Origin: Brevundimonas sp.
GTDB lineage: Bacteria > Pseudomonadota > Alphaproteobacteria > Caulobacterales > Caulobacteraceae
DNA: 64,000 bases
Reading direction: 5' to 3'
Assembly: GCF_035627055.1 (NCBI RefSeq)
Contig: NZ_DASPMM010000009.1
Span: forward strand, 22,334 to 86,333
Shown: positions 2,898 through 37,423 of the stretch, one piece after another
How positions within the stretch are numbered: position 1 is the first letter of the stretch
Layout of the letters: the number at the start of each line of letters is the position of its first letter
Notes under the pieces: generated by a model
The model's database searches: none
Seen by the model: the letters and a program-made list of their open reading frames with translations, nothing else
What the model was told of the DNA's origin: nothing
Translations under genes and position numbers: made by a program

Positions 2898-3628
2898 TCG
2901 TCTACCCCGCCATCGACCTGCGCGGCGGCGTCTGCGTGCGCCTGATGCACGGCCGCTTCGACGCCGTGACCCGCTATGACGACGACCCCGCCGCCCGCCT
3001 CGCCGCCTTCCGCGCCGCCGGGGCCGACTGGGCCCACATCGTCGATCTCGACGGGGCCGAGGCGGGCCGCGCCATGCAGCACGCCCTGATCGGCGAGCTC
3101 ACCGCGGCCATCGACATCCGCATTCAGTCCGGCGGCGGCGTCCGCTCCGCCGACGACGTGCAGCGCCTCCTCGACGCCGGCGTCAGCCGGGTGGTCATCG
3201 GCTCCCTCGCCGTCTCCGATCCCGGGGCGGTCTCCGGCTGGCTGGACCGGTTCGGCCCCGACCGCATCACCCTCGCCATCGACGTCAAGGCCGACGGCGA
3301 CCGCTACATCCCGGCGCTCAAGGGCTGGACCGAGGCCGCCGACATCGACCTTTGGGCCGCCCTCGACCGCTATCCGCCCGGCGTGGCGAAACACTTGCTG
3401 GTCACCGACGTCGGCCGCGACGGGGCTCTGACCGGCCCCAACCTCGATCTGCTGGCCGAGATCCACCGGCGTCGTCCAGACCTGTGGCTGCAGGCCTCCG
3501 GCGGCGTCGCCGGCGTCTCCGACCTGACCGGCGCCCGCTCCGTCGGCGCTTCCGGCGCCATCGTCGGCCGCGCCCTCTACGAAGGCCGCTTCAAACTGCA
3601 ACAGGCCCTGGAAGCCGCCCGCGCATGA
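2894..3628 (+). CDS. hisA: ProFAR isomerase
   Basis: IVYPAIDLRGG, HIVDLDGA, QSGGGVRS, TDVGRDGALTGPN, ASGGV. Confidence 0.97.
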   Translation: MIVYPAIDLRGGVCVRLMHGRFDAVTRYDDDPAARLAAFRAAGADWAHIVDLDGAEAGRAMQHALIGELTAAIDIRIQSGGGVRSADDVQRLLDAGVSRVVIGSLAVSDPGAVSGWLDRFGPDRITLAIDVKADGDRYIPALKGWTEAADIDLWAALDRYPPGVAKHLLVTDVGRDGALTGPNLDLLAEIHRRRPDLWLQASGGVAGVSDLTGARSVGASGAIVGRALYEGRFKLQQALEAARA

Positions 3629-4392
3629 CCGCCCGCCGCATCATGCCCTGCCTCGACGTCAAGGACGGCCGCGTCGTCAAGGGCGTGCGGTTCGAGGGCC
3701 ACGTCGACATGGGCGACGCCGCCGACCTCGCCGCCCGCTACCGCGACCAGGGCGCTGACGAACTGGTCTTCTACGACATCACCGCCAGCCCGGAGGGCCG
3801 CACCCTCGACTACGGCTGGGTCCGGGATATCGCCCGCCTGCTCGACATCCCGTTCAGCGTCGCCGGCGGCATCCGCTCGGTCGAACAGGCCGGCCGCTGC
3901 CTCGACCACGGCGCCGACAAGGTCTCGATCAACTCCCCCGCGCTGGAGCGCCCGGAGCTGATCTCCGACCTCGCCGCCCGCTTCGGCGCCCAGTGCGTCG
4001 TCGTCGGCGTCGACTCGAAGCGCGCGGCCGACGACTGGTTCGTCCACCAGTACACCGGCGACCCCACGGCCAGCCGCGGCGCCGGCCGTCGCACCCTCGA
4101 CTGGATCGTCGAGGCGCAGGACCGCGGGGCGGGCGAAATCGTCCTCAACTGCATGGACGAAGACGGCGTCCGCGCCGGCTACGATATCGCCCAGCTCTCC
4201 GCCGCCCGCGCCCGCCTGACCGTTCCGCTGGTCGCCTCCGGTGGGGCCGGCGCGGCCTCGCACTTCGTCGACGTCTTCCAGCAGGCCGGCGTCTCCGGCG
4301 CCCTCGCCGCCAGCGTCTTCCACACCGGTTCGCTGACCATCCCGGACCTGAAGGCGTTCCTCATCAACGGCGGCGTGGAGATACGGCCATGA
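3625..4392 (+). CDS. hisF: Imidazole glycerol phosphate synthase cyclase subunit
   Basis: ATGA overlap with hisA; RIMPCLDVKDGRVVKGV, DELVFYDITAS, NCMDEDG, ASGGAG, ALAASVFH. Confidence 0.97.
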   Translation: MTARRIMPCLDVKDGRVVKGVRFEGHVDMGDAADLAARYRDQGADELVFYDITASPEGRTLDYGWVRDIARLLDIPFSVAGGIRSVEQAGRCLDHGADKVSINSPALERPELISDLAARFGAQCVVVGVDSKRAADDWFVHQYTGDPTASRGAGRRTLDWIVEAQDRGAGEIVLNCMDEDGVRAGYDIAQLSAARARLTVPLVASGGAGAASHFVDVFQQAGVSGALAASVFHTGSLTIPDLKAFLINGGVEIRP

Positions 4393-5042: not shown

Positions 5043-6503
5043 ATGGCGGCCCTGGTGCTGTTCGGCGGCGGCGGCGATCTGGCGATGCGCATGCTGCTGC
5101 CCTCGCTCTACTTCCTCGAGCACGACGGCCTGCTGCCCGACGGCCTCAAGATCATCGGCGCCGCCCGCTCCGACGAGAGCCGCGACGACTACGTCGCCAA
5201 GGTCCGCCAGTCCGTCGAAGCCAAGGCGAAGGCCGACGACGCTTGGGCCGGCGACGCCTGGGCCCGGATGGAGGCCCGGCTCGACTACCTCGCCGTCGAT
5301 GCGACCAGCGCCGAAAGCCTCAAGCCGCTCAAGGACAAGGTCGGCGACGGCGCCTGCACCTCCTTCCTCGCCGTCTCGCCCTCGCTCTACGCCCGCATCG
5401 TCACCGCGATGCGCGCCGCCGGCCTGGCCGAGGCCGAGGACCGCGTCGTTCTGGAAAAGCCGGTCGGCCGCGACCTCGAGACCTTCCGCCAGATCGACGA
5501 CGCCGTCGCCGACGCCTTCTCCGAGCACCAGGTCTTCCGCATCGACCACTACCTCGGCAAGGAGACGGTCCAGAACCTGATCGCCCTGCGTTTCGGCAAC
5601 ACCATCTTCGAGCCGCTGTGGAACAACCTGTCGATCGACCACGTCCAGATCACCGTCGGCGAGACCGTCGGGGTCGGCGACCGCTGGCCGTATTACGACG
5701 AGTACGGCGCCCTGCGGGACATGCTGCAGAACCACATGCTGCAGCTGCTCTGCCTCGTGGCCATGGAGCCGCCGTCCGACCTCGATCCCGACTCCGTCCG
5801 CAACGAGAAGGTCAAGGTCCTGCGCTCGCTGCGACCCATCACCCATGAAGAGGCCGAGCGCGTCACGGTGCGCGGCCAGTACGTCGCCGGAACCGTGGAG
5901 GGCCAACCCGTCCCCGGCTACGACGAGGAGCGCGGCGCCGAGTCCGACACCGAGACCTTCGTCGCCGTCCGCGCCGACATCGACAACTGGCGCTGGGCCG
6001 GCGTGCCCTTCTTCATGCGCACCGGCAAACGCCTGCCCGAGAAACGCACCGAGATCGTCATCCAGTTCAAGTCGGTGCCGCACTCGATCTTCGGCCAGGG
6101 TGAGCGCGGTTCCATCGAGGCCAATCGCCTGGTGATCGAACTCCAGCCCGAGGAGGACATTTCCCTCTCGGTGATGAACAAGCAGCCCGGCCTCGACCAG
6201 CGCATGCAGCTCCAGCCCATCCGCATGAGCCTGTCCTGGGGCCAGAACGACCGGGAGGCCCGGCCGCCGCGCCGCCGCATCGCCTACGAGCGGCTGCTGC
6301 TCGACGCTCTGCACGGCGACTCCACCCTGTTCGTGCGCCGCGACGAGGCCGAGCAGGCGTGGAAATGGGTCGACGAGGTCTCCGAGGCCTGGGAGGGCGC
6401 GGCCTTCAAACCGCACGACTACGCCGCCGGAACCTGGGGCCCCGAGGCCGCCGACCTGCTGCTGTCCCGCACCGGCCGCGAATGGAATTCCGGCGATGCC
6501 TGA
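5043..6503 (+). CDS. zwf: Glucose-6-phosphate 1-dehydrogenase
   Basis: LFGGGGDLA, LEKPVGRD, FRIDHYLGKETVQN, RDMLQNH, RWAGVPFFMRTGK, AYERLL. Confidence 0.98.
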   Translation: MAALVLFGGGGDLAMRMLLPSLYFLEHDGLLPDGLKIIGAARSDESRDDYVAKVRQSVEAKAKADDAWAGDAWARMEARLDYLAVDATSAESLKPLKDKVGDGACTSFLAVSPSLYARIVTAMRAAGLAEAEDRVVLEKPVGRDLETFRQIDDAVADAFSEHQVFRIDHYLGKETVQNLIALRFGNTIFEPLWNNLSIDHVQITVGETVGVGDRWPYYDEYGALRDMLQNHMLQLLCLVAMEPPSDLDPDSVRNEKVKVLRSLRPITHEEAERVTVRGQYVAGTVEGQPVPGYDEERGAESDTETFVAVRADIDNWRWAGVPFFMRTGKRLPEKRTEIVIQFKSVPHSIFGQGERGSIEANRLVIELQPEEDISLSVMNKQPGLDQRMQLQPIRMSLSWGQNDREARPPRRRIAYERLLLDALHGDSTLFVRRDEAEQAWKWVDEVSEAWEGAAFKPHDYAAGTWGPEAADLLLSRTGREWNSGDA

Positions 6504-15418: not shown

Positions 15419-15562
15419 TTCTCCCTCCCCCAGCGGGGGAGGGTGGCTGAGCCGCAGGCGAAGCCGGGTGGGGGCGGCTCGGCAGGACAGCAGTACTCCC
15501 CTCGCCAAGCCCTCCCCACCCGTCGGCTTCGCCGACACCCTCCCCGGGACGGGGAGGGAGAA
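15419..15562. repeat. Intergenic palindromic element, family A (REP/CIR/RIME-like)
   Basis: Terminal inverted repeat TTCTCCCTCCCC...GGGGAGGGAGAA with internal hairpins; between convergent-free flanking genes. Confidence 0.8.
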
Positions 15563-18845: not shown

Positions 18846-19015
18846 TCTCCTCCCCGTCGCGCAGCGATGGGGAGGGGGACCATCTGGAGCCCGCAGGGCG
18901 GAAGATGGTGGAGGGGTGAAACCTCCACGCAGATCCTGGGGGCGACCGCGCAGGGTCCCCACCCCTCCCACCGCTTCGCGGTCACCCTCCCCACGCCGGA
19001 GGCGCGGGGAGGAGA
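18846..19015. repeat. Palindromic element, family A
   Basis: TCTCCTCCCC...GGGGAGGAGA ends; GGGGACC..GGTGGAGGGG left arm and CCCCTCCCACCGCTTCGCGGTC right arm; between convergent genes. Confidence 0.8.
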
Positions 19016-22801: not shown

Positions 22802-22856
22802 TCTCCTCCCCCGCAGGAGGAGGGGGACCGCGAAGCGGTGGAGGGGCGAAACCTCA
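22802..22856. repeat. Half copy of palindromic family A
   Basis: TCTCCTCCCCC..GGAGGGGGACCGCGAAGCGGTGGAGGGGCGAAACCTC matches the left arm of the 18846 copy. Confidence 0.7.
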
Positions 22857-30689: not shown

Positions 30690-30739
30690 TCCCGGCCGTG
30701 ACGGATTGAACCCCCCGCCCCTTCGGCCTAGGGTCGCGC

Positions 30740-32870
<2,131 letters not shown>

Positions 32871-32871
32871 G

Positions 32872-32955
32872 TCCTCCCCCATCGGGGGAGGGGGACCGCG
32901 CAGCGGTGGAGGGGCATAGGCGCGCCTCGGCCGTCAGCCATTGCCCCCCATCACT
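32872..32955. repeat. Truncated palindromic family A element at the left edge of the AT-richer islet
   Basis: CCTCCCCC..GGGGGAGGGGGACCGCGCAGCGGTGGAGGGG left arm; no intact right arm. Confidence 0.7.
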
Positions 32956-32988
32956 CGCGCCACGAGCGGCGGAGTGAATGTGTGAGGC

Positions 32989-33096
32989 TCACCTGCCGGG
33001 ATTCTTCGGGTCCCGACGGATCGCCCAGATCAGCAACGCGATCGAACTGATCACGGCAGACAATCCCAGCAGCAGCGGTCCAGTGATTACGATCAT
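32989..33096 (-). CDS. 35-aa single-TM peptide (not in ORF track)
   Basis: Manual translation MIVITGPLLLGLSAVISSIALLIWAIRRDPKNPGR; AGGAG RBS overlaps the TAG of the upstream gene. Confidence 0.7.
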   Translation of the reverse strand: MIVITGPLLLGLSAVISSIALLIWAIRRDPKNPGR

Positions 33097-33105
33097 GGGG
33101 CGCTC

Positions 33106-34206
33106 CTATTCCGGGGCGCCTAGCGGACGATCGTATCGGCCGACTTGAGCATCAGACAAGAGTTGGGAATAGCCGCGCGTCCACCTTTCGATTGCCGTCT
33201 TGCGGCGCGCATAGGCTAGCCGACAACCCGGCGTATCTGCCTCGACCCGCAGCTTGGCGACACCGCGTACTGCGGGGGCTCGATGATGGAGAGGTAGAGA
33301 AACCACTAGGTCCGCACCGTAGCTATCCAACAGGTACTCTCGCCCTTCCAGCAGCTCACGGGAAACCTCCATCACCGTTGCAGAAAGGAGCGCCACATCG
33401 TCGTCAGGCTGGCGGGTGTAGAGTACGCTGTAGTCCACTGGGAAAAGCGGTTCTGCGTCCCACTCCGGTCCGTCGAACAGCCAAGGCTCAAACCAGAGAG
33501 CGCCAATGTCTTGGAGGGTTTTCACCCGGGCCCAGAATGCGCTCCAAGGCTTCGCTGCCTTTTTGTCGTGATGGGCGGTCACCCATGCGCCTTCAGCGCC
33601 AAGAGATTGATCAAGCGAGAGAGCCCACAGCGCGTGGACGCCCATTTCGCTAATCTTCTTCCCCACGGCGTCCTCGTCGCCTTGGCGGAGCGCGGAAAGC
33701 GGAACGCTATAAGTTTGATCGACCTGAACCAAGCCATACAGATCGATCAACATTTTGAGGAGAAGCCAATCCCCGGTTTCTCTAACTCGACGCAAAACCG
33801 GCGCCTCCTGACCGAAACCAGTCACGATCTGGACAGGAAGAAAGATCGGGTCATCGTCCTCCCCAATATCGGGCAGGACGTACTGCGGGGCGAGCTTCGT
33901 TGATGCGGAACTGATGACGACCAGATCCGCCGTGATCAGTTCCTGGATCGCCAGCCTGGCTCGGGGCCGCCCGAGGCCCAATCGCTCCTCACATGCCTTC
34001 GCCGACCATTTGGTGAGCCTGTGATCGCTCCCCGTCCCCGCCAACAGCGTGAGAAACGTCAGGACCAAGTTCAAACGGTTGACGGTCTTGGCCTCAAGGA
34101 GGCGACTCCACACGTCTCTGCCCAAAACGAAGAACCGACTGCCCCGCCCCTTTCCTCTCAGCGTTTTTTCGATGGCCTCGGCAGTCAAAGCGGCCTCCAA
34201 GCGCAA
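33106..34206 (-). CDS. Hypothetical protein with putative N-terminal winged-helix domain, mobile-element type
   Basis: 366-codon ORF in an AT-richer tract; WSAKACEERLGLGRPRARLAIQELITADLV is HTH-like; alternative TTG start at 34188 with GGAG RBS. Confidence 0.75.
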   Translation of the reverse strand: MRLEAALTAEAIEKTLRGKGRGSRFFVLGRDVWSRLLEAKTVNRLNLVLTFLTLLAGTGSDHRLTKWSAKACEERLGLGRPRARLAIQELITADLVVISSASTKLAPQYVLPDIGEDDDPIFLPVQIVTGFGQEAPVLRRVRETGDWLLLKMLIDLYGLVQVDQTYSVPLSALRQGDEDAVGKKISEMGVHALWALSLDQSLGAEGAWVTAHHDKKAAKPWSAFWARVKTLQDIGALWFEPWLFDGPEWDAEPLFPVDYSVLYTRQPDDDVALLSATVMEVSRELLEGREYLLDSYGADLVVSLPLHHRAPAVRGVAKLRVEADTPGCRLAYARRKTAIERWTRGYSQLLSDAQVGRYDRPLGAPE

Positions 34207-34252
34207 TCCTCGGCCCTAGCACGCTGCCGATTTCCAACCGCTATCATACCCC

Positions 34253-34306
34253 ATCAAGGACATCAAGGCTATCAGAGGTATTCAAGAACACCGGACTATA
34301 TCAAGG
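34253..34306. repeat. 9-bp periodic degenerate array (ATCAAGG core)
   Basis: ATCAAGG at 34253, 34262 and 34300; variants ATCAGAGG at 34271 and ATTCAAG at 34280; next to a minus-strand TATGAT at 34243-48. Confidence 0.7.
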
Positions 34307-34469
34307 ATCTCAAAAAAACCGTGTCAGCGCGGCTTCGCCGCCCAAGTGCAGGATTTTCAGTTCGGCCCTTCGGATGCCGTATCCACCCAGCTTCAAAGGC
34401 CGCTGCCATACCTGACGTGATTGACGGCCACGCTTCCGTGACCTCAGCTGTGGCTGAAGGGGAGCCTTT

Positions 34470-34805
34470 ATGACTTACGCAGGGGTGGTTGAGATCGCCG
34501 CGAACGGCGGCGCGATCCTCGCTGGCGTTTCTTCGCTGGCAATCGCGATCTCGCTAGCCGGAAGGCGCTTAGGCGAGAGACGAGCCCTCGAAGCTTACCT
34601 CAAGCGAATGACGATTGAACGTCGGCGAAGCGGGGGCCAAGGCTTGGAGAATATCCTAGAGGTAATGCGCCAGACCAAGCTCGGCGAGGAAGCCATCATG
34701 CGAGCTGCATTCAGTAGCAAGAAGGTACGGGTCCGAAGCCGGCCCAACGAGAAGAACCAGACCATGGAACTCGTCATCGGCTACGGCGACCATAACAAGG
34801 ACTAA
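34470..34805 (+). CDS. Hypothetical protein, N-terminal TM helix + basic small domain
   Basis: GGGGAG RBS; GGAILAGVSSLAIAISLAG hydrophobic stretch; divergent from the wHTH-like gene. Confidence 0.7.
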   Translation: MTYAGVVEIAANGGAILAGVSSLAIAISLAGRRLGERRALEAYLKRMTIERRRSGGQGLENILEVMRQTKLGEEAIMRAAFSSKKVRVRSRPNEKNQTMELVIGYGDHNKD

Positions 34806-34810
34806 GCTTC

Positions 34811-35476
34811 TCACCCCTCCCCCGCCATCTTCCGCAACGCCTCTTCAAAGACGGAGGCCGGCTGCCCCCCGCTGATCAGCCATTTCCCCTCCACCACCAC
34901 CGCCGGCACGCCGGTGATGCCGCGCGAGACCCACAGCGCCTCCGCCGCCCGCACCGCGTCCGCATAGCGCCCCTCCGCCAGCACCGCCGCCGCCTCGGCC
35001 CGGTCCAGCCCCGCCGCCTCCGCCGCCGCGGCCAGCACCCCGGTGTCGCCCATAGCCTCGCCGCGCGTGAAATGCGCCTCGAACAGCGCCCGCTTCAGCG
35101 CCGCCTGGCCCTCCAGCCCCGCCGTCTCACCGGCCCAGTGCAGCAGCCGGTGGGCGTCGAAGGTGTTCCAGATGCGGCTCGTCTCGCCCATCCGCATCTC
35201 GAAACCCGGCCAGGCCTCCGCCGCCCGCGCCCGGATCATCTCGCGGTTCTTCGCCGACTGCTCCGGCGTCGCGCCGTATTTGCCGGCCACGTGCTCGACG
35301 ATGTTCTCGCCCTCGGGCGGCATCTGCGGGTTCAGCTCGAACGGCTGGAAGCGCACCTGCGCCTCGATCCCCTCCTCCTTCAGCGTCTCCAGCGCCTGCG
35401 TCAGCCCGCCCAGCCCCACCACGCACCACGGGCAGACGATGTCCGAGACGAAGTCGATGTGCAGGGTGCGGGGCAT
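34811..35476 (-). CDS. DsbA family oxidoreductase (FrnE-like)
   Basis: IDFVSDIVCPWC, PFELNPQMP, NTFDAHRLLHWA, ITGVPAVV, ISGGQP. Confidence 0.94.
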   Translation of the reverse strand: MPRTLHIDFVSDIVCPWCVVGLGGLTQALETLKEEGIEAQVRFQPFELNPQMPPEGENIVEHVAGKYGATPEQSAKNREMIRARAAEAWPGFEMRMGETSRIWNTFDAHRLLHWAGETAGLEGQAALKRALFEAHFTRGEAMGDTGVLAAAAEAAGLDRAEAAAVLAEGRYADAVRAAEALWVSRGITGVPAVVVEGKWLISGGQPASVFEEALRKMAGEG

Positions 35477-35507
35477 GGGGGCGTCTCCGGGGGGAAGCCA
35501 AACATGG

Positions 35508-36688: not shown

Positions 36689-36862
36689 TCCGCTCCCCGC
36701 CCCCTGACGCTGTGCTGGCATTCCGCGAATCCATAGTCGGGTTCAGCCGAAAACCCCCCGCCTTTCCAGCGACATCCCCTTTTCCCGAACCGATCTTCCC
36801 GCCACAGGAGCCGGGCGGCGCACAATTCGTCCCGACCGATGCAGACGAGGACGCCCCCGCCG

Positions 36863-37423
36863 ATGACCCGCCAGACCCGCACCGCCCGCTCCACCGGCCG
36901 CCGCGCCGCCCCCGACGAGGTCTGGCGCCGCGTGCGCGACGACTATCTGGCCGGGATGTCCGGGCCGGACGCCTGCCGGCGTCACGGCGTGCGCCTCACC
37001 GCCATGCGGCAGCGCGCCGCCCGTGAACGCTGGCGCCGCATGGACCAGCCGTGGGCCCCGCCGCCGAACCGGCTCGACGCGCAGGACGAGGGCGTCGCCC
37101 TCGAGGACCGGGTCGGCGGCGACCTCGACCAGGTCGACTTCTGCGAGCTGTCCTACGTCGCCCACCGCCGGATGATGCGGGCGGTGATGCGCGGCGACGC
37201 CGCCGGGGCGCTGCGCTGGCGCCGCGTGCGCCTCGCCATGGACGAGGAGGAGGCCGAGGTCGACCGCGCCACCGCCCAGGACGTGGCCATCGGCTTCGAG
37301 CGCGCCGGCGAGGCCGAACTGGCCGCCATCGAGGCGGCCGCTGCGCACTCTGCGCACTCTGCGGACGCTGTGCACTCTACGGACGCTATGCACTCTACGG
37401 ACGCTACGGACGCATTTTTCTAG
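36863..37423 (+). CDS. Hypothetical protein, N-terminal HTH reminiscent of terminase small subunits, repetitive tail
   Basis: VWRRVRDDYLAGMSGPDACRRHGVRLTAMRQRAARERW; ends AHSAHSADAVHSTDAMHSTDATDAFF. Confidence 0.72.
   Translation: MTRQTRTARSTGRRAAPDEVWRRVRDDYLAGMSGPDACRRHGVRLTAMRQRAARERWRRMDQPWAPPPNRLDAQDEGVALEDRVGGDLDQVDFCELSYVAHRRMMRAVMRGDAAGALRWRRVRLAMDEEEAEVDRATAQDVAIGFERAGEAELAAIEAAAAHSAHSADAVHSTDAMHSTDATDAFF
37345..37414 (+). repeat. 9-nt-unit tandem repeat (GCACTCTRC / GGACGCTRY)
   Basis: gcactctgc gcactctgc ggacgctgt gcactctac ggacgctat gcactctac ggacgctac ggacgc. Confidence 0.85.

What the first reader, a model, noticed from the sequence alone, without database searches (positions are those of the whole stretch)
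32960..34806. Integrase-less AT-richer islet: wHTH-like protein + coupled micropeptide + divergent membrane protein
Seen: about 1.8 kb of atypical composition between thiC and the DsbA-like gene, starting where a family A palindrome is cut short. It contains a 366-codon ORF with an HTH-like N-terminus, a coupled 35-aa TM peptide, a 9-bp periodic array over the shared promoter region and a divergent 111-aa TM protein. No integrase, transposase or tRNA is adjacent. Inference: either a replication/regulatory module left by a phage satellite or IME, or a compact uncharacterised defence or toxin-antitoxin-like system captured by recombination at the palindrome. This is the best candidate for an undescribed system in the window.
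Basis: partly seen in the sequence, partly recalled or inferred. Interest (0 to 1): 0.7.

Follow-up and report, generated by a model that had tools for sequence, protein, structure and literature searches.

The report
Orphan repeat-binding cassette from mobile elements
A 1.9-kb piece of foreign DNA sits between the thiamine gene thiC and a DsbA-like gene, carrying an unnamed DNA-binding protein, its conserved array of 9-bp repeats and a tiny coupled membrane peptide; relatives of this cassette turn up across plasmids, integrative elements and phage-like DNA, where it looks most like a replication-origin module.

Summary
An islet of 57-61% GC in a ~70% GC genome lies between the stop codons of thiC and dsbA. 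Related soil strains have the empty site, so it is an accessory insertion of about 1.93 kb.

Its core is a cassette:
- a direct-repeat array (ATCAAGGNN, 9-bp period) over a promoter;
- protein X (360 aa, not 366): an N-terminal winged helix plus a 250-aa domain with no Pfam, NCBIfam, PADLOC or PDB match;
- a translationally coupled 35-aa membrane peptide.

All three genes are under purifying selection (dN/dS 0.05-0.17).

X belongs to a large unnamed superfamily (545 clusters at 50% identity). The same ATCAAGG repeats, box and hairpin accompany the gene family-wide. They lie upstream in the sphingomonad clade and immediately downstream in a distal clade. Distal members occupy the "rep" slot of int-xis-X elements, Mob-X and ParA-X-capsid contigs, and an 8.6-kb circular capsid-bearing element.

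The best reading is an initiator/iteron-type cassette of mobile-element origin, autoregulated here. A toxin-antitoxin/defence-like reading (partner swaps to a MazF-like protein) and a StbA-like maintenance reading remain open. The divergent 111-aa gene is clade-specific cargo. The "palindrome cut short" claim was not supported.

The parts
32892..34818 (.). Accessory islet as delimited by empty-site contigs. Other joints put the edges at 32866/32871 on the left and 34810/34816 on the right.
   Evidence: Contigs of related strains join 32891 to 34819 (+ATCAGG), 32866 to 34810, 32871 to 34816 and 32866 to 34819. A loose end at 34817 fits this. GC dip.
32873..32914 (-). REP-like two-hairpin element (CCCCTCCACCGCTGCGCGGTCCCCCTCCCCC-GAT-GGGGGAGG) just after the thiC stop. 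It is one of a family with copies at 18963 and 22821.
   Evidence: The same element lies at the end of the sister islet L047.
32915..32988 (.). Spacer. In sister islets (L047, L073) a 99-aa GNPGN-repeat gene lies between the peptide gene and thiC, on the peptide side of this REP-like element in L047. In L053, L054 and L072 the peptide stop nearly abuts the thiC stop.
32989..33096 (-). 35-aa single-helix membrane peptide, translationally coupled to X. Family motif: L[IV]WAxR[RK]DP[KR].
   Evidence: dN/dS 0.10-0.14. Called as a gene next to homologues.
33106..34188 (-). Protein X, 360 aa. Winged helix at about residues 20-105 of the 360-aa protein (25-110 in the numbering of the 366-aa ORF used for the model), a helix-turn-helix-like segment, then an alpha/beta C-terminal domain of unknown fold. 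Start TTG at 34188 (the ORF reaches 34206).
   Evidence: dN/dS 0.05-0.08.
34213..34220 (-). GCTAGGGC, a -10-like box of the alphaproteobacterial type (GCTANAWC, from my own knowledge). Conserved as GTGCTA(C/G)GG upstream of the X start in most homologues examined.
   Evidence: conservation. The promoter role is inferred; the E. coli-type scan finds nothing.
34243..34308 (+). Direct-repeat array. Units ATCATACCC, ATCAAGGAC, ATCAAGGCT, ATCAGAGGT, then the box TTCAAGAACACCGGAC, then ATCAAGGAT. 9-bp period.
34309..34343 (+). Second conserved box (CTCAAAAAAACCGTGTC, which reads GACACGGTTTTTTTGAG on the X strand) followed by a GC-rich hairpin (AGCGCGGCTTCGCCGC). The same box and hairpin flank the arrays of distal relatives.
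34470..34805 (+). 111-aa protein with one N-terminal membrane helix. Cargo specific to the thiC-dsbA islet clade and convergent with dsbA (5 nt between the stops).
   Evidence: dN/dS 0.17. Absent from the other 43 loci.
30909..32870 (+). thiC (flank, host gene), with its TPP riboswitch at 30737-30845.
34811..35503 (-). DsbA-like gene (flank, host gene). Its last one or two codons differ between filled and empty sites.

Best explanation
The islet is a horizontally acquired, integrase-less insertion between the convergent genes thiC and dsbA. Its conserved core is a portable 'protein plus repeat array' cassette of mobile-element origin.

Proposed mechanism:
- Protein X binds, through its N-terminal winged helix, the tandem ATCAAGG units that always travel with its gene.
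- In this clade the array (9-bp period, with a conserved box and hairpin) overlies X's own promoter. Binding therefore autoregulates the X-micropeptide operon.
- The 35-aa membrane peptide is made in fixed proportion to X by translational coupling.

By ancestry and layout the cassette is most likely an initiator/iteron-type (Rep-ori-like) module. It resembles lambda O with its ori, or P1 RepA with iterons in its promoter. X nucleates on the repeats next to an A/T-rich box and a hairpin, and its C-terminal domain would recruit host factors.

Shown: insertion status; conservation and purifying selection of X and the peptide; family-wide co-occurrence of X with the same repeat motif; the mobile-element contexts.

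Inferred: that X binds the repeats; autoregulation; initiator function; any role of the peptide.

Whether the chromosomal copy still fires as an origin, or is kept for another reason (exclusion or addiction), is open.
For: 1. Insertion. Islet-free thiC-dsbA joints appear in several metagenomes (loose end), and the GC content is atypical.
2. Function is retained. X dN/dS is 0.05-0.08 and the peptide 0.10-0.14. Intact copies sit at the same site in at least five lineages.
3. X has a winged helix of the type found in repressors, TubR and staphylococcal RepA N-terminal domains. Viral structure matches are 'HTH domain' and 'replication initiator' proteins. The Citrobacter homologue weakly hits PHROGs 'replication initiation O-like' (E about 1e-4).
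4. The same cis-element occurs family-wide. CCTTGAT units at 9-bp spacing lie upstream of 24 of the 25 proximal-clade genes examined; one locus (L024) has a single core match. ATCAAGG units at 10-11-bp spacing lie immediately 3' of the gene in 8 of 10 distal-clade loci, plus the Citrobacter element, with TTCAAAG variants in Acinetobacter. The box ACGGTGTTCTT and a GC hairpin flank the arrays of representatives of both clades. The two clades are securely homologous (hhalign probability 100%, E 5e-49).
5. Distal members occupy the replication-gene slot. Examples: int-257aa-HTH_17(xis)-X-array in a 5.9-kb tRNA-Cys element with 49-nt att repeats; P4-type integrase...X; Mob_Pre-X-array; ParA-114aa-X-array-capsid-portal. 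In the 8,580-bp circular Citrobacter element, and its 4-mer in E. kobei, X is the only plausible replication gene.
6. Repeats, then an A/T-rich box, then a palindrome is the architecture of lambda ori. Iterons inside the rep promoter is the P1 arrangement. Both points rest on my own knowledge.
Against: - No binding or replication experiment exists.
- X matches no Rep family: Rep_3, RPA and HTH_36 all fail at threshold.
- Repeat units of 9-11 bp are short for classical iterons.
- X coexists with another initiator on several elements: RPA on sphingomonad plasmids and ICE regions, and RepM on an Acinetobacter plasmid.
- The proximal clade is absent from 72,556 PLSDB plasmids, 50,697 phage records and IMG/VR.
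- Solitary chromosomal copies under strong purifying selection are not what one expects of a bare Rep gene.
- The coupled partner alternates between a membrane peptide and a PemK/MazF-domain protein, which looks like effector swapping.
- Residues conserved in the C-terminal domain of one clade (for example EADTPG) are not kept in the other.
Confidence: 0.45

Rival explanations
1. Toxin-antitoxin, abortive-infection or exclusion-type module. X is a large winged-helix repressor/sensor (an AbiEi-like logic) that autoregulates through the repeat array. It holds in check a translationally coupled toxic effector: here the 35-aa membrane peptide, elsewhere a PemK/MazF-domain protein. The cassette persists as a solitary islet because it is addictive or protective.
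For: - The downstream partner is coupled (4-nt overlap, or the stop codon inside the Shine-Dalgarno). It swaps between small membrane proteins and a 245-aa PemK_toxin-domain protein followed by a 218-aa protein, in 19 loci.
- Solitary 1.5-1.9-kb copies lie in unrelated chromosomal sites.
- X and the peptide are saturated at synonymous sites while the flanks are nearly identical. That is allele replacement, as seen at defence/TA loci.
- Neighbours include SMODS+DUF6602, Fic, a ThsB-like TIR protein, Mrr_cat and HicAB.
- The peptide has the size and topology of type I toxins (comparison from my own knowledge).
Against: - No PADLOC hit for X, the peptide, the PemK-like protein or the 218-aa protein.
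- A 360-aa antitoxin is unusual.
- Arrays of 4-8 direct repeats with a box and a hairpin are unlike the usual palindromic TA operators.
- Distal-clade genes are followed by the array, and in three of the loci examined by a small soluble protein, not by a toxin-like gene.
- No toxicity data exist.
Confidence: 0.25
2. NTPase-independent maintenance/regulatory system of the StbA-stbDR or centromere-binding kind. X coats the repeat array, which acts as a centromere-like or positioning site. In doing so it represses adjacent promoters and stabilises the element that carries it.
For: - The array lies around the promoter with 9-bp units, as in R388, where StbA binds two sets of five 9-bp repeats around the stbABC promoter and needs no plasmid NTPase (PMC3098194).
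- TubR is among the fold matches of the winged helix.
- X coexists with other Rep genes on plasmids.
- ParA lies next to X in L028/L037 and L060.
Against: - No sequence relation to StbA, ParB, ParR or TubR was found; fold E-values are only about 0.2.
- ParA is adjacent in only a few loci.
- A segregation function gives no reason for retention of solitary chromosomal copies, or for the coupled peptide or toxin-like partner.
Confidence: 0.15
3. An ordinary host regulator of thiC or dsbA, or a decaying remnant without function.
For: Position between two housekeeping genes. No mobility genes nearby.
Against: - Islet-free strains exist.
- Homologues lie in unrelated contexts and on mobile elements.
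- All ORFs are intact and under purifying selection.
- The array is conserved across genera.
Confidence: 0.05

Closest known systems
Iteron-binding replication initiators with adjacent origin: lambda O/ori; P1 RepA/oriR; Rep_3-type RepA/RepE/pi; SaPI/PICI rep-ori
   Same: N-terminal winged helix. Tandem direct repeats abut the gene, 3' of it as in SaPI/PICI or over its promoter as in P1. The repeats are followed by an A/T-rich box and a palindrome, as in lambda ori. The gene occupies the slot after int and xis in small integrative elements. One homologue gives weak 'replication initiation O-like' PHROG hits. The lambda, P1 and SaPI layouts are from my own knowledge.
   Different: No match to Rep_3, RPA or RepA_N, and only sub-threshold HTH_36 hits. 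Repeat units are 9-11 bp rather than 17-22 bp. The C-terminal 250 aa has no known fold. There is no helicase or primase domain. X is often found beside another Rep. Replication is untested.
StbA-stbDR of plasmid R388 (NTPase-independent segregation and regulation)
   Same: A small array of 9-bp direct repeats around the promoter of the gene for the protein that binds them. The protein is multifunctional (regulator plus maintenance) and lies on conjugative elements near the relaxase.
   Different: No detectable sequence relation. StbA is small, whereas X is 360 aa with a large extra domain. The spacing is 9 bp here against 11 bp. A coupled peptide or toxin-like partner is present here.
Type II/IV toxin-antitoxin operons with winged-helix antitoxins (AbiEi/AbiEii; PemIK/MazEF) and type I membrane toxins (Hok, Fst, Ldr, TisB)
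   Same: An upstream DNA-binding gene autoregulating an operon. A coupled downstream partner that is either a small hydrophobic peptide or a PemK/MazF-fold protein. Solitary islets and mobile-element association.
   Different: No PADLOC or Pfam membership for X or the peptide. The operator is a direct-repeat array. X is far larger than known antitoxins. No antisense RNA family was detected. Toxicity is untested.
Small integrative elements and phage satellites (P4-like, PICI, IMEs)
   Same: Distal relatives lie in int-xis-X elements with tRNA att repeats, and in a capsid-bearing 8.6-kb circular element.
   Different: The window's islet has no integrase, no att repeats and no tRNA. It is only the X cassette plus one cargo gene.

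Membership tests
Rep_3-type iteron initiators (PF01051) | Sequence match to the family profile | tested here: not met
   No Pfam hit for X, for 27 close relatives or for 40 distant relatives.
Rep_3-type iteron initiators (PF01051) | Two winged-helix domains | tested here: inconclusive
   One clear N-terminal winged helix. Residues 137-196 of the model (366-aa ORF numbering) form helix-turn-helix plus a hairpin, but the C-terminal model has no PDB match.
Iteron initiators in general | Tandem direct repeats next to the gene, conserved with it | tested here: met
Iteron initiators in general | Supports autonomous replication of DNA carrying the repeats | not testable with these tools
   Only circumstantial: the 8.6-kb circular element and its 4-mer have X as the sole candidate.
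Lambda O-like initiators (PHROG 678 / 18020) | Profile match | tested here: not met
   The window X has no PHROG hit. Only the Citrobacter homologue hits, weakly (E 1.3e-4 and 1.7e-4), over the winged helix.
Replication initiator protein A (RPA, PF10134) | Profile match or profile-profile relation | tested here: not met
   No Pfam hit. hhalign probability 0.1% against RPA proteins of the same loci.
Type II TA of the PemK/MazF kind | MazF/PemK-fold toxin gene downstream of a small antitoxin | tested here: not met
   In the window the partner is a 35-aa peptide. A PemK_toxin-domain partner (E 5e-8) occurs only in the 19 group-B loci. X is 360 aa, not a small antitoxin.
AbiE (type IV TA) and other catalogued defence systems | Match to PADLOC models | tested here: not met
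   No hit for X, the peptide or the 111-aa protein, nor for the PemK-like and 218-aa partners.
Type I membrane toxins | Small single-helix hydrophobic peptide | tested here: met
   Mean hydropathy 2.46 over 19 residues, with a basic tail.
Type I membrane toxins | Antisense RNA antitoxin; toxicity on expression | not tested
   No Rfam family in the islet, which does not exclude an unknown RNA. Toxicity needs an experiment.
StbA / centromere-binding proteins (TubR, ParR, omega) | Direct-repeat array around the promoter of the gene | tested here: met
   The comparison is with PMC3098194.
StbA / centromere-binding proteins (TubR, ParR, omega) | Sequence or fold membership; stabilisation of a plasmid | tested here: inconclusive
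   TubR matches only the generic winged helix (E 0.22). Stabilisation cannot be tested here.
WYL-type defence regulators (BrxR/CapW) | wHTH-WYL-WCX architecture | tested here: not met
   No WYL hit in Pfam. BrxR scores Foldseek probability 0.09.
Integrative element / satellite | Integrase, att direct repeats, tRNA or other target | tested here: not met
   None in or beside the window islet. These features are met only in distal relatives.

The most novel reading that the evidence does not exclude
The X-array cassette is a new kind of mobile-element conflict system. A Rep-derived protein sits on iteron-like repeats. It senses an incoming or resident element that uses the same repeats, or loss of its own element. 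It then releases a coupled effector: a 35-aa membrane peptide here, a MazF-like protein on ICEs. Incompatibility, addiction or abortive infection follows. The chromosomal thiC-dsbA islet would then be a stand-alone exclusion module whose X and peptide alleles are swapped by recombination.
Probability: 0.2. Interest if true: 0.8.

Novelty: new variant of a known kind. Interest (0 to 1): 0.6.

Why it matters
X defines a large protein superfamily: 545 clusters at 50% identity, from alpha-, beta- and gammaproteobacteria. It has no entry in Pfam, NCBIfam or PADLOC, no PHROG hit for the window protein or four distal members tested, and no solved structure for its main domain. Yet it comes with a readable DNA motif (ATCAAGG repeats, a box and a hairpin), which makes its function directly testable.

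If it is an initiator, it supplies the missing replication module of many small integrative elements, mobilisable plasmids and a compact capsid-bearing circular element of Enterobacteriaceae. If it is a regulator of coupled toxins, it is a new addiction or defence architecture.

Either way it explains a recurrent class of integrase-less mini-islets in sphingomonad chromosomes, and it gives annotators a gene-plus-site signature to look for.

Tried and rejected
- Profile searches of the three islet proteins against Pfam, PHROGs, PADLOC and NCBIfam gave nothing.
- PDB sequence searches gave only chance hits.
- Foldseek of the full model returned only the generic winged helix. Foldseek of the separately modelled C-terminal domain returned nothing credible.
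- A relation to the RPA initiators in the same loci was rejected.
- A catalytic (nuclease, primase or HUH) reading of the C-terminal domain was considered. It was dropped because the candidate motifs lie in a helix or are not conserved between clades.
- IMG/VR, INPHARED and PLSDB searches with the window protein were empty or nearly so.
- Alignment A4 was too divergent for the viral-contig locus scan, and the same error came back for A5 on metagenome contigs.
- Literature searches for the repeat motif found nothing relevant.
- The E. coli-type promoter scan and Tandem Repeats Finder missed the array. It was recovered by repeat finding and comparative analysis.
- 'Organism' runs X5, X12, X14 and X24 turned out to be community samples and gave no clean empty site.
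- Metatranscriptome contigs cover parts of the islet only at depth about 2. I do not count this as proof of transcription.
- No terminal inverted or direct repeats that could mark a transposon-like unit were found at the islet ends.
Full report
**1. What is in the window**

Between thiC (30909-32870, +; TPP riboswitch at 30737-30845) and a DSBA-domain gene (stop at 34811, -), GC falls from about 0.70 to 0.57-0.61. The stretch holds three ORFs:
- X at 33106-34206(-);
- a 35-aa ORF at 32989-33096(-);
- a 111-aa ORF at 34470-34805(+).

Comparison with homologues moves the X start to TTG at 34188 (360 aa), with a GGAGG 6 nt upstream. The peptide ATG lies 9 nt after the X stop, and that TAG is part of an AGGAG. 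No tRNA lies within 16 kb. None of the three islet proteins or the two flanking genes matched an integrase or transposase family; ORFs further out were read but not profile-searched.

**2. It is an insertion**

Contigs from other soil metagenomes and metatranscriptomes match thiC and dsbA at 90% identity or more and skip the islet. The joints are:
- 32891 to 34819, with ATCAGG between them (two runs);
- 32866 to 34810 and 32871 to 34816 (one run, depths 32 and 13);
- 32866 to 34819 (one run).

A further contig leaves dsbA at 34817 into a different hairpin. In the empty form, thiC and dsbA are convergent and separated by little more than one hairpin.

The filled form is also not unique to this strain. 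The same order, thiC-(99 aa)-peptide-X-111 aa-dsbA, or parts of it, is found on short contigs. Their X proteins are 88, 76, 76, 71 and 56% identical to the window's.

The REP-like element at 32873-32914 belongs to a family with copies at 18963 and 22821. It is complete over their shared core, so I could not confirm that a palindrome is 'cut short'.

**3. The genes are real and constrained**

Nei-Gojobori estimates:

| Gene | dN/dS |
|---|---|
| X | 0.05-0.08 |
| 35-aa peptide | 0.10-0.14 |
| 111-aa gene | 0.17 |
| 99-aa gene of sister islets | 0.04 |

The locus is mosaic. Between the window and L047:
- dsbA has dS 0.16 (88% aa identity);
- the 111-aa gene has dS 0.06 (95% aa identity);
- X is saturated at synonymous sites (pS 0.85, 76% aa identity);
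- the peptides are 43% identical.

The break falls in the intergenic array region. L047 and L073 share X (90.5% identical) but not the 111-aa allele (76%). So X and the peptide have been replaced as a unit by recombination.

**4. What X is**

X has no Pfam, PHROG, PADLOC or NCBIfam hit. More than 239 close homologues exist. The names attached to them are only 'hypothetical' or 'uncharacterized' protein, and those with an organism label come from Sphingomonadales.

In species-representative genomes I found 43 loci. Most are in Sphingomonadales. Others are in Roseobacter-group genera, Rhizomicrobium, Methylobacteriaceae, Parvibaculum, a Hydrogenophaga MAG and a Kangiellaceae MAG, and one lies on a 28-kb plasmid.

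AlphaFold gives a confident model (pLDDT 88). Foldseek recognises only the N-terminal winged helix, matching ArsR/CzrA, the CodY C-terminal domain, TubR and staphylococcal RepA N-terminal domains at E about 0.1-0.5. Viral models named 'HTH domain protein' or 'replication initiator protein' match at E 0.003-0.1. The C-terminal 253 residues, modelled alone (pLDDT 83), match nothing in the PDB (best E 0.19, probability 0.08).

An exhaustive profile search with that domain finds 545 clusters at 50% identity, 256 of them below 1e-10. In the full-length hits listed, the domain follows an N-terminal region of about 90-320 residues, mostly 90-220. The hits fall into two clades: a proximal one containing the window's family, and a larger distal one. 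The two are securely related over their full length (hhalign probability 100%, E 5e-49). Distal members also show only winged-helix signals in Pfam, and the ten clusters looked up carry no name other than 'hypothetical protein'. X is unrelated to the RPA initiators encoded in some of the same loci.

**5. The repeat array is the key feature**

In the window the + strand reads ATCATACCC ATCAAGGAC ATCAAGGCT ATCAGAGGT. Next comes TTCAAGAACACCGGAC, then ATCAAGGAT, then CTCAAAAAAACCGTGTC and a GC hairpin (34243-34343). Three exact ATCAAGG lie within 54 bp, against 3.9 expected in the whole 64 kb.

Upstream of 24 of the 25 proximal-clade genes I examined, across genera and genomic contexts, the same design recurs. 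It consists of a GC hairpin, the box ACGGTGTTCTT, one or two units, a second box CCGGTGTTCTTGA, and three to six NNCCTTGAT units. Then come GGGG(T/A)C and GTGCTA(C/G)GG, and finally the start codon. One locus (L024) has only a single core match. Units occur 4.9 times per 336 nt, against 0.40 in shuffles. The interval is exactly 9 bp in 59 cases, and the next most frequent interval is 19 bp, in nine cases. GTGCTA(C/G)GG fits the alphaproteobacterial -10 consensus GCTANAWC. That consensus is from my own knowledge, and the E. coli-type scan is blind to it.

In the distal clade, the same core ATCAAGG appears as two to five tandem units at 10-11-bp spacing immediately after the stop codon of the gene. 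It is followed by GTAAGAACAC(GGTG) and a GC hairpin in 8 of 10 loci. The same holds in:
- the Citrobacter element, with six units at 6222-6280;
- an Acinetobacter plasmid, with TTCAAAG/TTCAATG variants.

An alignment of the cis-regions of representatives of both clades shows the shared hairpin-box-repeat layout. A protein family that keeps one DNA motif beside its gene over this evolutionary distance almost certainly binds it. This is an inference, not a demonstration.

**6. Contexts**

Distal clade:
- A 5.9-kb element inserted in tRNA-Cys with 49-nt att repeats. It carries integrase, a 257-aa protein, an HTH_17 excisionase-like protein, X, the array and three small ORFs.
- Integrase, a 76-aa protein and X.
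- IMG/VR contigs with P4-type integrase...X, with Mob_Pre-X-array-helicase, and with ParA-114aa-X-array-capsid-portal.
- An 8,580-bp circular Citrobacter 'plasmid' with capsid, tail-assembly protein, integrase, X, the array and 1.1 kb of non-coding DNA. It is present as a tetramer in Enterobacter kobei. Its X gives weak 'replication initiation O-like' PHROG hits.

In these elements X sits where a replication gene is expected and is the only candidate for one. On the other hand, an Acinetobacter 7.3-kb plasmid has both RepM and an X-like gene with its array.

Proximal clade:
- Nineteen loci carry X, a 245-aa PemK/MazF-domain protein and often a 218-aa protein. These lie in ICE or plasmid regions with relaxase, a T4 coupling protein, ArdC, a ParB-like protein, a Strawberry-notch helicase, an RPA initiator, SMODS+DUF6602 or Fic.
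- Plasmid-like loci have RPA and ParA diverging from X.
- One prophage- or defence-like island carries RusA, an AHJR-like protein, X, the peptide, Mrr_cat and a ThsB-like TIR protein.
- Solitary cassettes of array, X and peptide lie between unrelated housekeeping genes.

The window protein finds no proximal-clade relative in PLSDB (only two weak distal hits), nothing in INPHARED, and the proximal alignment finds nothing in IMG/VR.

**7. The partners**

The 35-aa peptide belongs to a family of 35-61-aa proteins. Each has one hydrophobic helix followed by L[IV]WAxR[RK]DP[KR] (W and R invariant). The gene usually overlaps the X stop by 4 nt, and one sister islet has two tandem paralogues. A few loci carry other small membrane ORFs instead, and group B has the PemK-like protein.

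The 111-aa protein has only six clusters at 90% identity. The contexts examined are all in this thiC islet next to X, and it is absent from the other loci. It is therefore cargo, not part of the module.

**8. Interpretation**

The shown facts are:
- this is an accessory insertion;
- X and the peptide are a conserved, constrained, translationally coupled pair;
- a specific repeat array with a box and a hairpin is inherited with X family-wide;
- relatives live on mobile elements, many in the slot of the replication gene.

From these I infer that X binds the array. In this clade the array overlies the X promoter, so binding would autoregulate the operon.

For the role, I commit to an initiator/iteron-type cassette (confidence 0.45). 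The reasons are gene position in minimal integrative and circular elements, and the repeats-A/T box-palindrome layout, which recalls lambda ori (my own knowledge). The O-like and 'replication initiator' similarities of the winged helix are weak but consistent.

The evidence that pulls the other way is real. X coexists with other Reps, is absent from sequenced sphingomonad plasmids and persists as solitary chromosomal copies. Allele replacement and the swapping of a membrane peptide for a MazF-like partner point the same way.

I therefore keep two rivals:
- a TA/defence/exclusion reading at 0.25;
- a StbA-like maintenance/regulator reading at 0.15. R388 StbA binds two sets of five 9-bp repeats around its own promoter (PMC3098194).

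A host-regulator or dead-remnant reading is largely excluded (0.05).

**9. Novelty and score**

The kind of system is known: a site-specific winged-helix protein with an adjacent direct-repeat array on mobile elements. The family, its C-terminal fold, its motif and its coupling to a micropeptide or toxin-like partner are undescribed in every library and in the papers I could search. I rate it a new variant of a known kind, with interest 0.6. The function is unproven, but a cheap experiment (binding, replication, toxicity) would decide among the three models.

Noticed in passing
L070 (NZ_CP056897.1, whole 8,580-bp record); L071 (NZ_CP110875.1): A circular 8.6-kb Citrobacter 'plasmid' encodes a major capsid protein, a tail-assembly protein, a tyrosine integrase, a YlcI/YnfO protein and an X homologue. 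Six ATCAAGG/ATCAATG repeats and 1.1 kb of non-coding DNA follow X. The same unit is present as a 4-mer (34.3 kb) in Enterobacter kobei. It looks like a very small capsid-bearing satellite or episome.
   Followed up: partly
L055 5679-11605: A 5.9-kb integrative element in tRNA-Cys, bounded by a perfect 49-nt direct repeat. It carries integrase, a 257-aa protein, an HTH_17 protein, a 412-aa X, two TCAAGG units and three small ORFs, with no relaxase or other replication gene.
   Followed up: partly
L009 10001-12000; L015 10001-12505 (and 17 more loci): On sphingomonad ICE or plasmid regions, X is followed by a 245-aa protein with a PemK/MazF toxin domain (E 5e-8) and often a 218-aa protein of unknown family. 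Neighbours include relaxase, a T4 coupling protein, SMODS+DUF6602, Fic, ArdC and a Strawberry-notch helicase.
   Followed up: partly
L074 (NZ_CP028557.1) 3085-4300: An Acinetobacter 7.3-kb plasmid with RepM and HicAB also carries an X-like gene, followed by six TTCAAAG/TTCAATG repeats at about 11-bp spacing. X and a classical Rep therefore coexist.
   Followed up: partly
L047 2570-2869; L073 254-553; L072 1-460: Sister islets carry an extra 99-aa gene with a GNPGN collagen-like repeat (dN/dS 0.04) between the peptide gene and thiC. One islet has two tandem micropeptide paralogues. The window lacks both.
   Followed up: partly
window 33106-34805 compared with L047 and L073: The islet is mosaic. 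X and the peptide are saturated at synonymous sites, while the 111-aa gene (dS 0.06) and dsbA (dS 0.16) are nearly identical. The X and 111-aa genealogies disagree, so recombination breaks in the array region.
   Followed up: yes
L058 9163-9360; L062 9005-9259; L055 9481-9696: In these three distal-clade loci the array is followed by a small soluble protein (65-84 aa) ending in a shared motif, [SG]GC.[VL][YF].
   Followed up: no
window 15424-15442, 15539-15557, 18963-18988, 22821-22846, 32873-32914: A REP-like family (CCCCTCCACCGCTTCGCGGTCCCCCTCC...GGGGGAGG) and related CCTCCCC/GGGGAGG hairpins are scattered through the window.
   Followed up: partly
window 30737-30845: TPP riboswitch upstream of thiC (69.6 bits, E 1e-12).
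   Followed up: yes
window 37341-37413: An 18-bp tandem repeat (2.9 copies, 94% matches) lies inside the 3' end of the 194-aa ORF 36839-37423, giving the peptide repeat HSADAVHSTDAMHSTDA.
   Followed up: no
window 34309-34345 (- strand): On the X strand, the hairpin GGCGGCGAAGCCGCGC is followed 8 nt later by T7. It could stop dsbA read-through, running antisense to the 111-aa gene, before it reaches the array. dsbA and the 111-aa gene are convergent with 5 nt between their stops.
   Followed up: no
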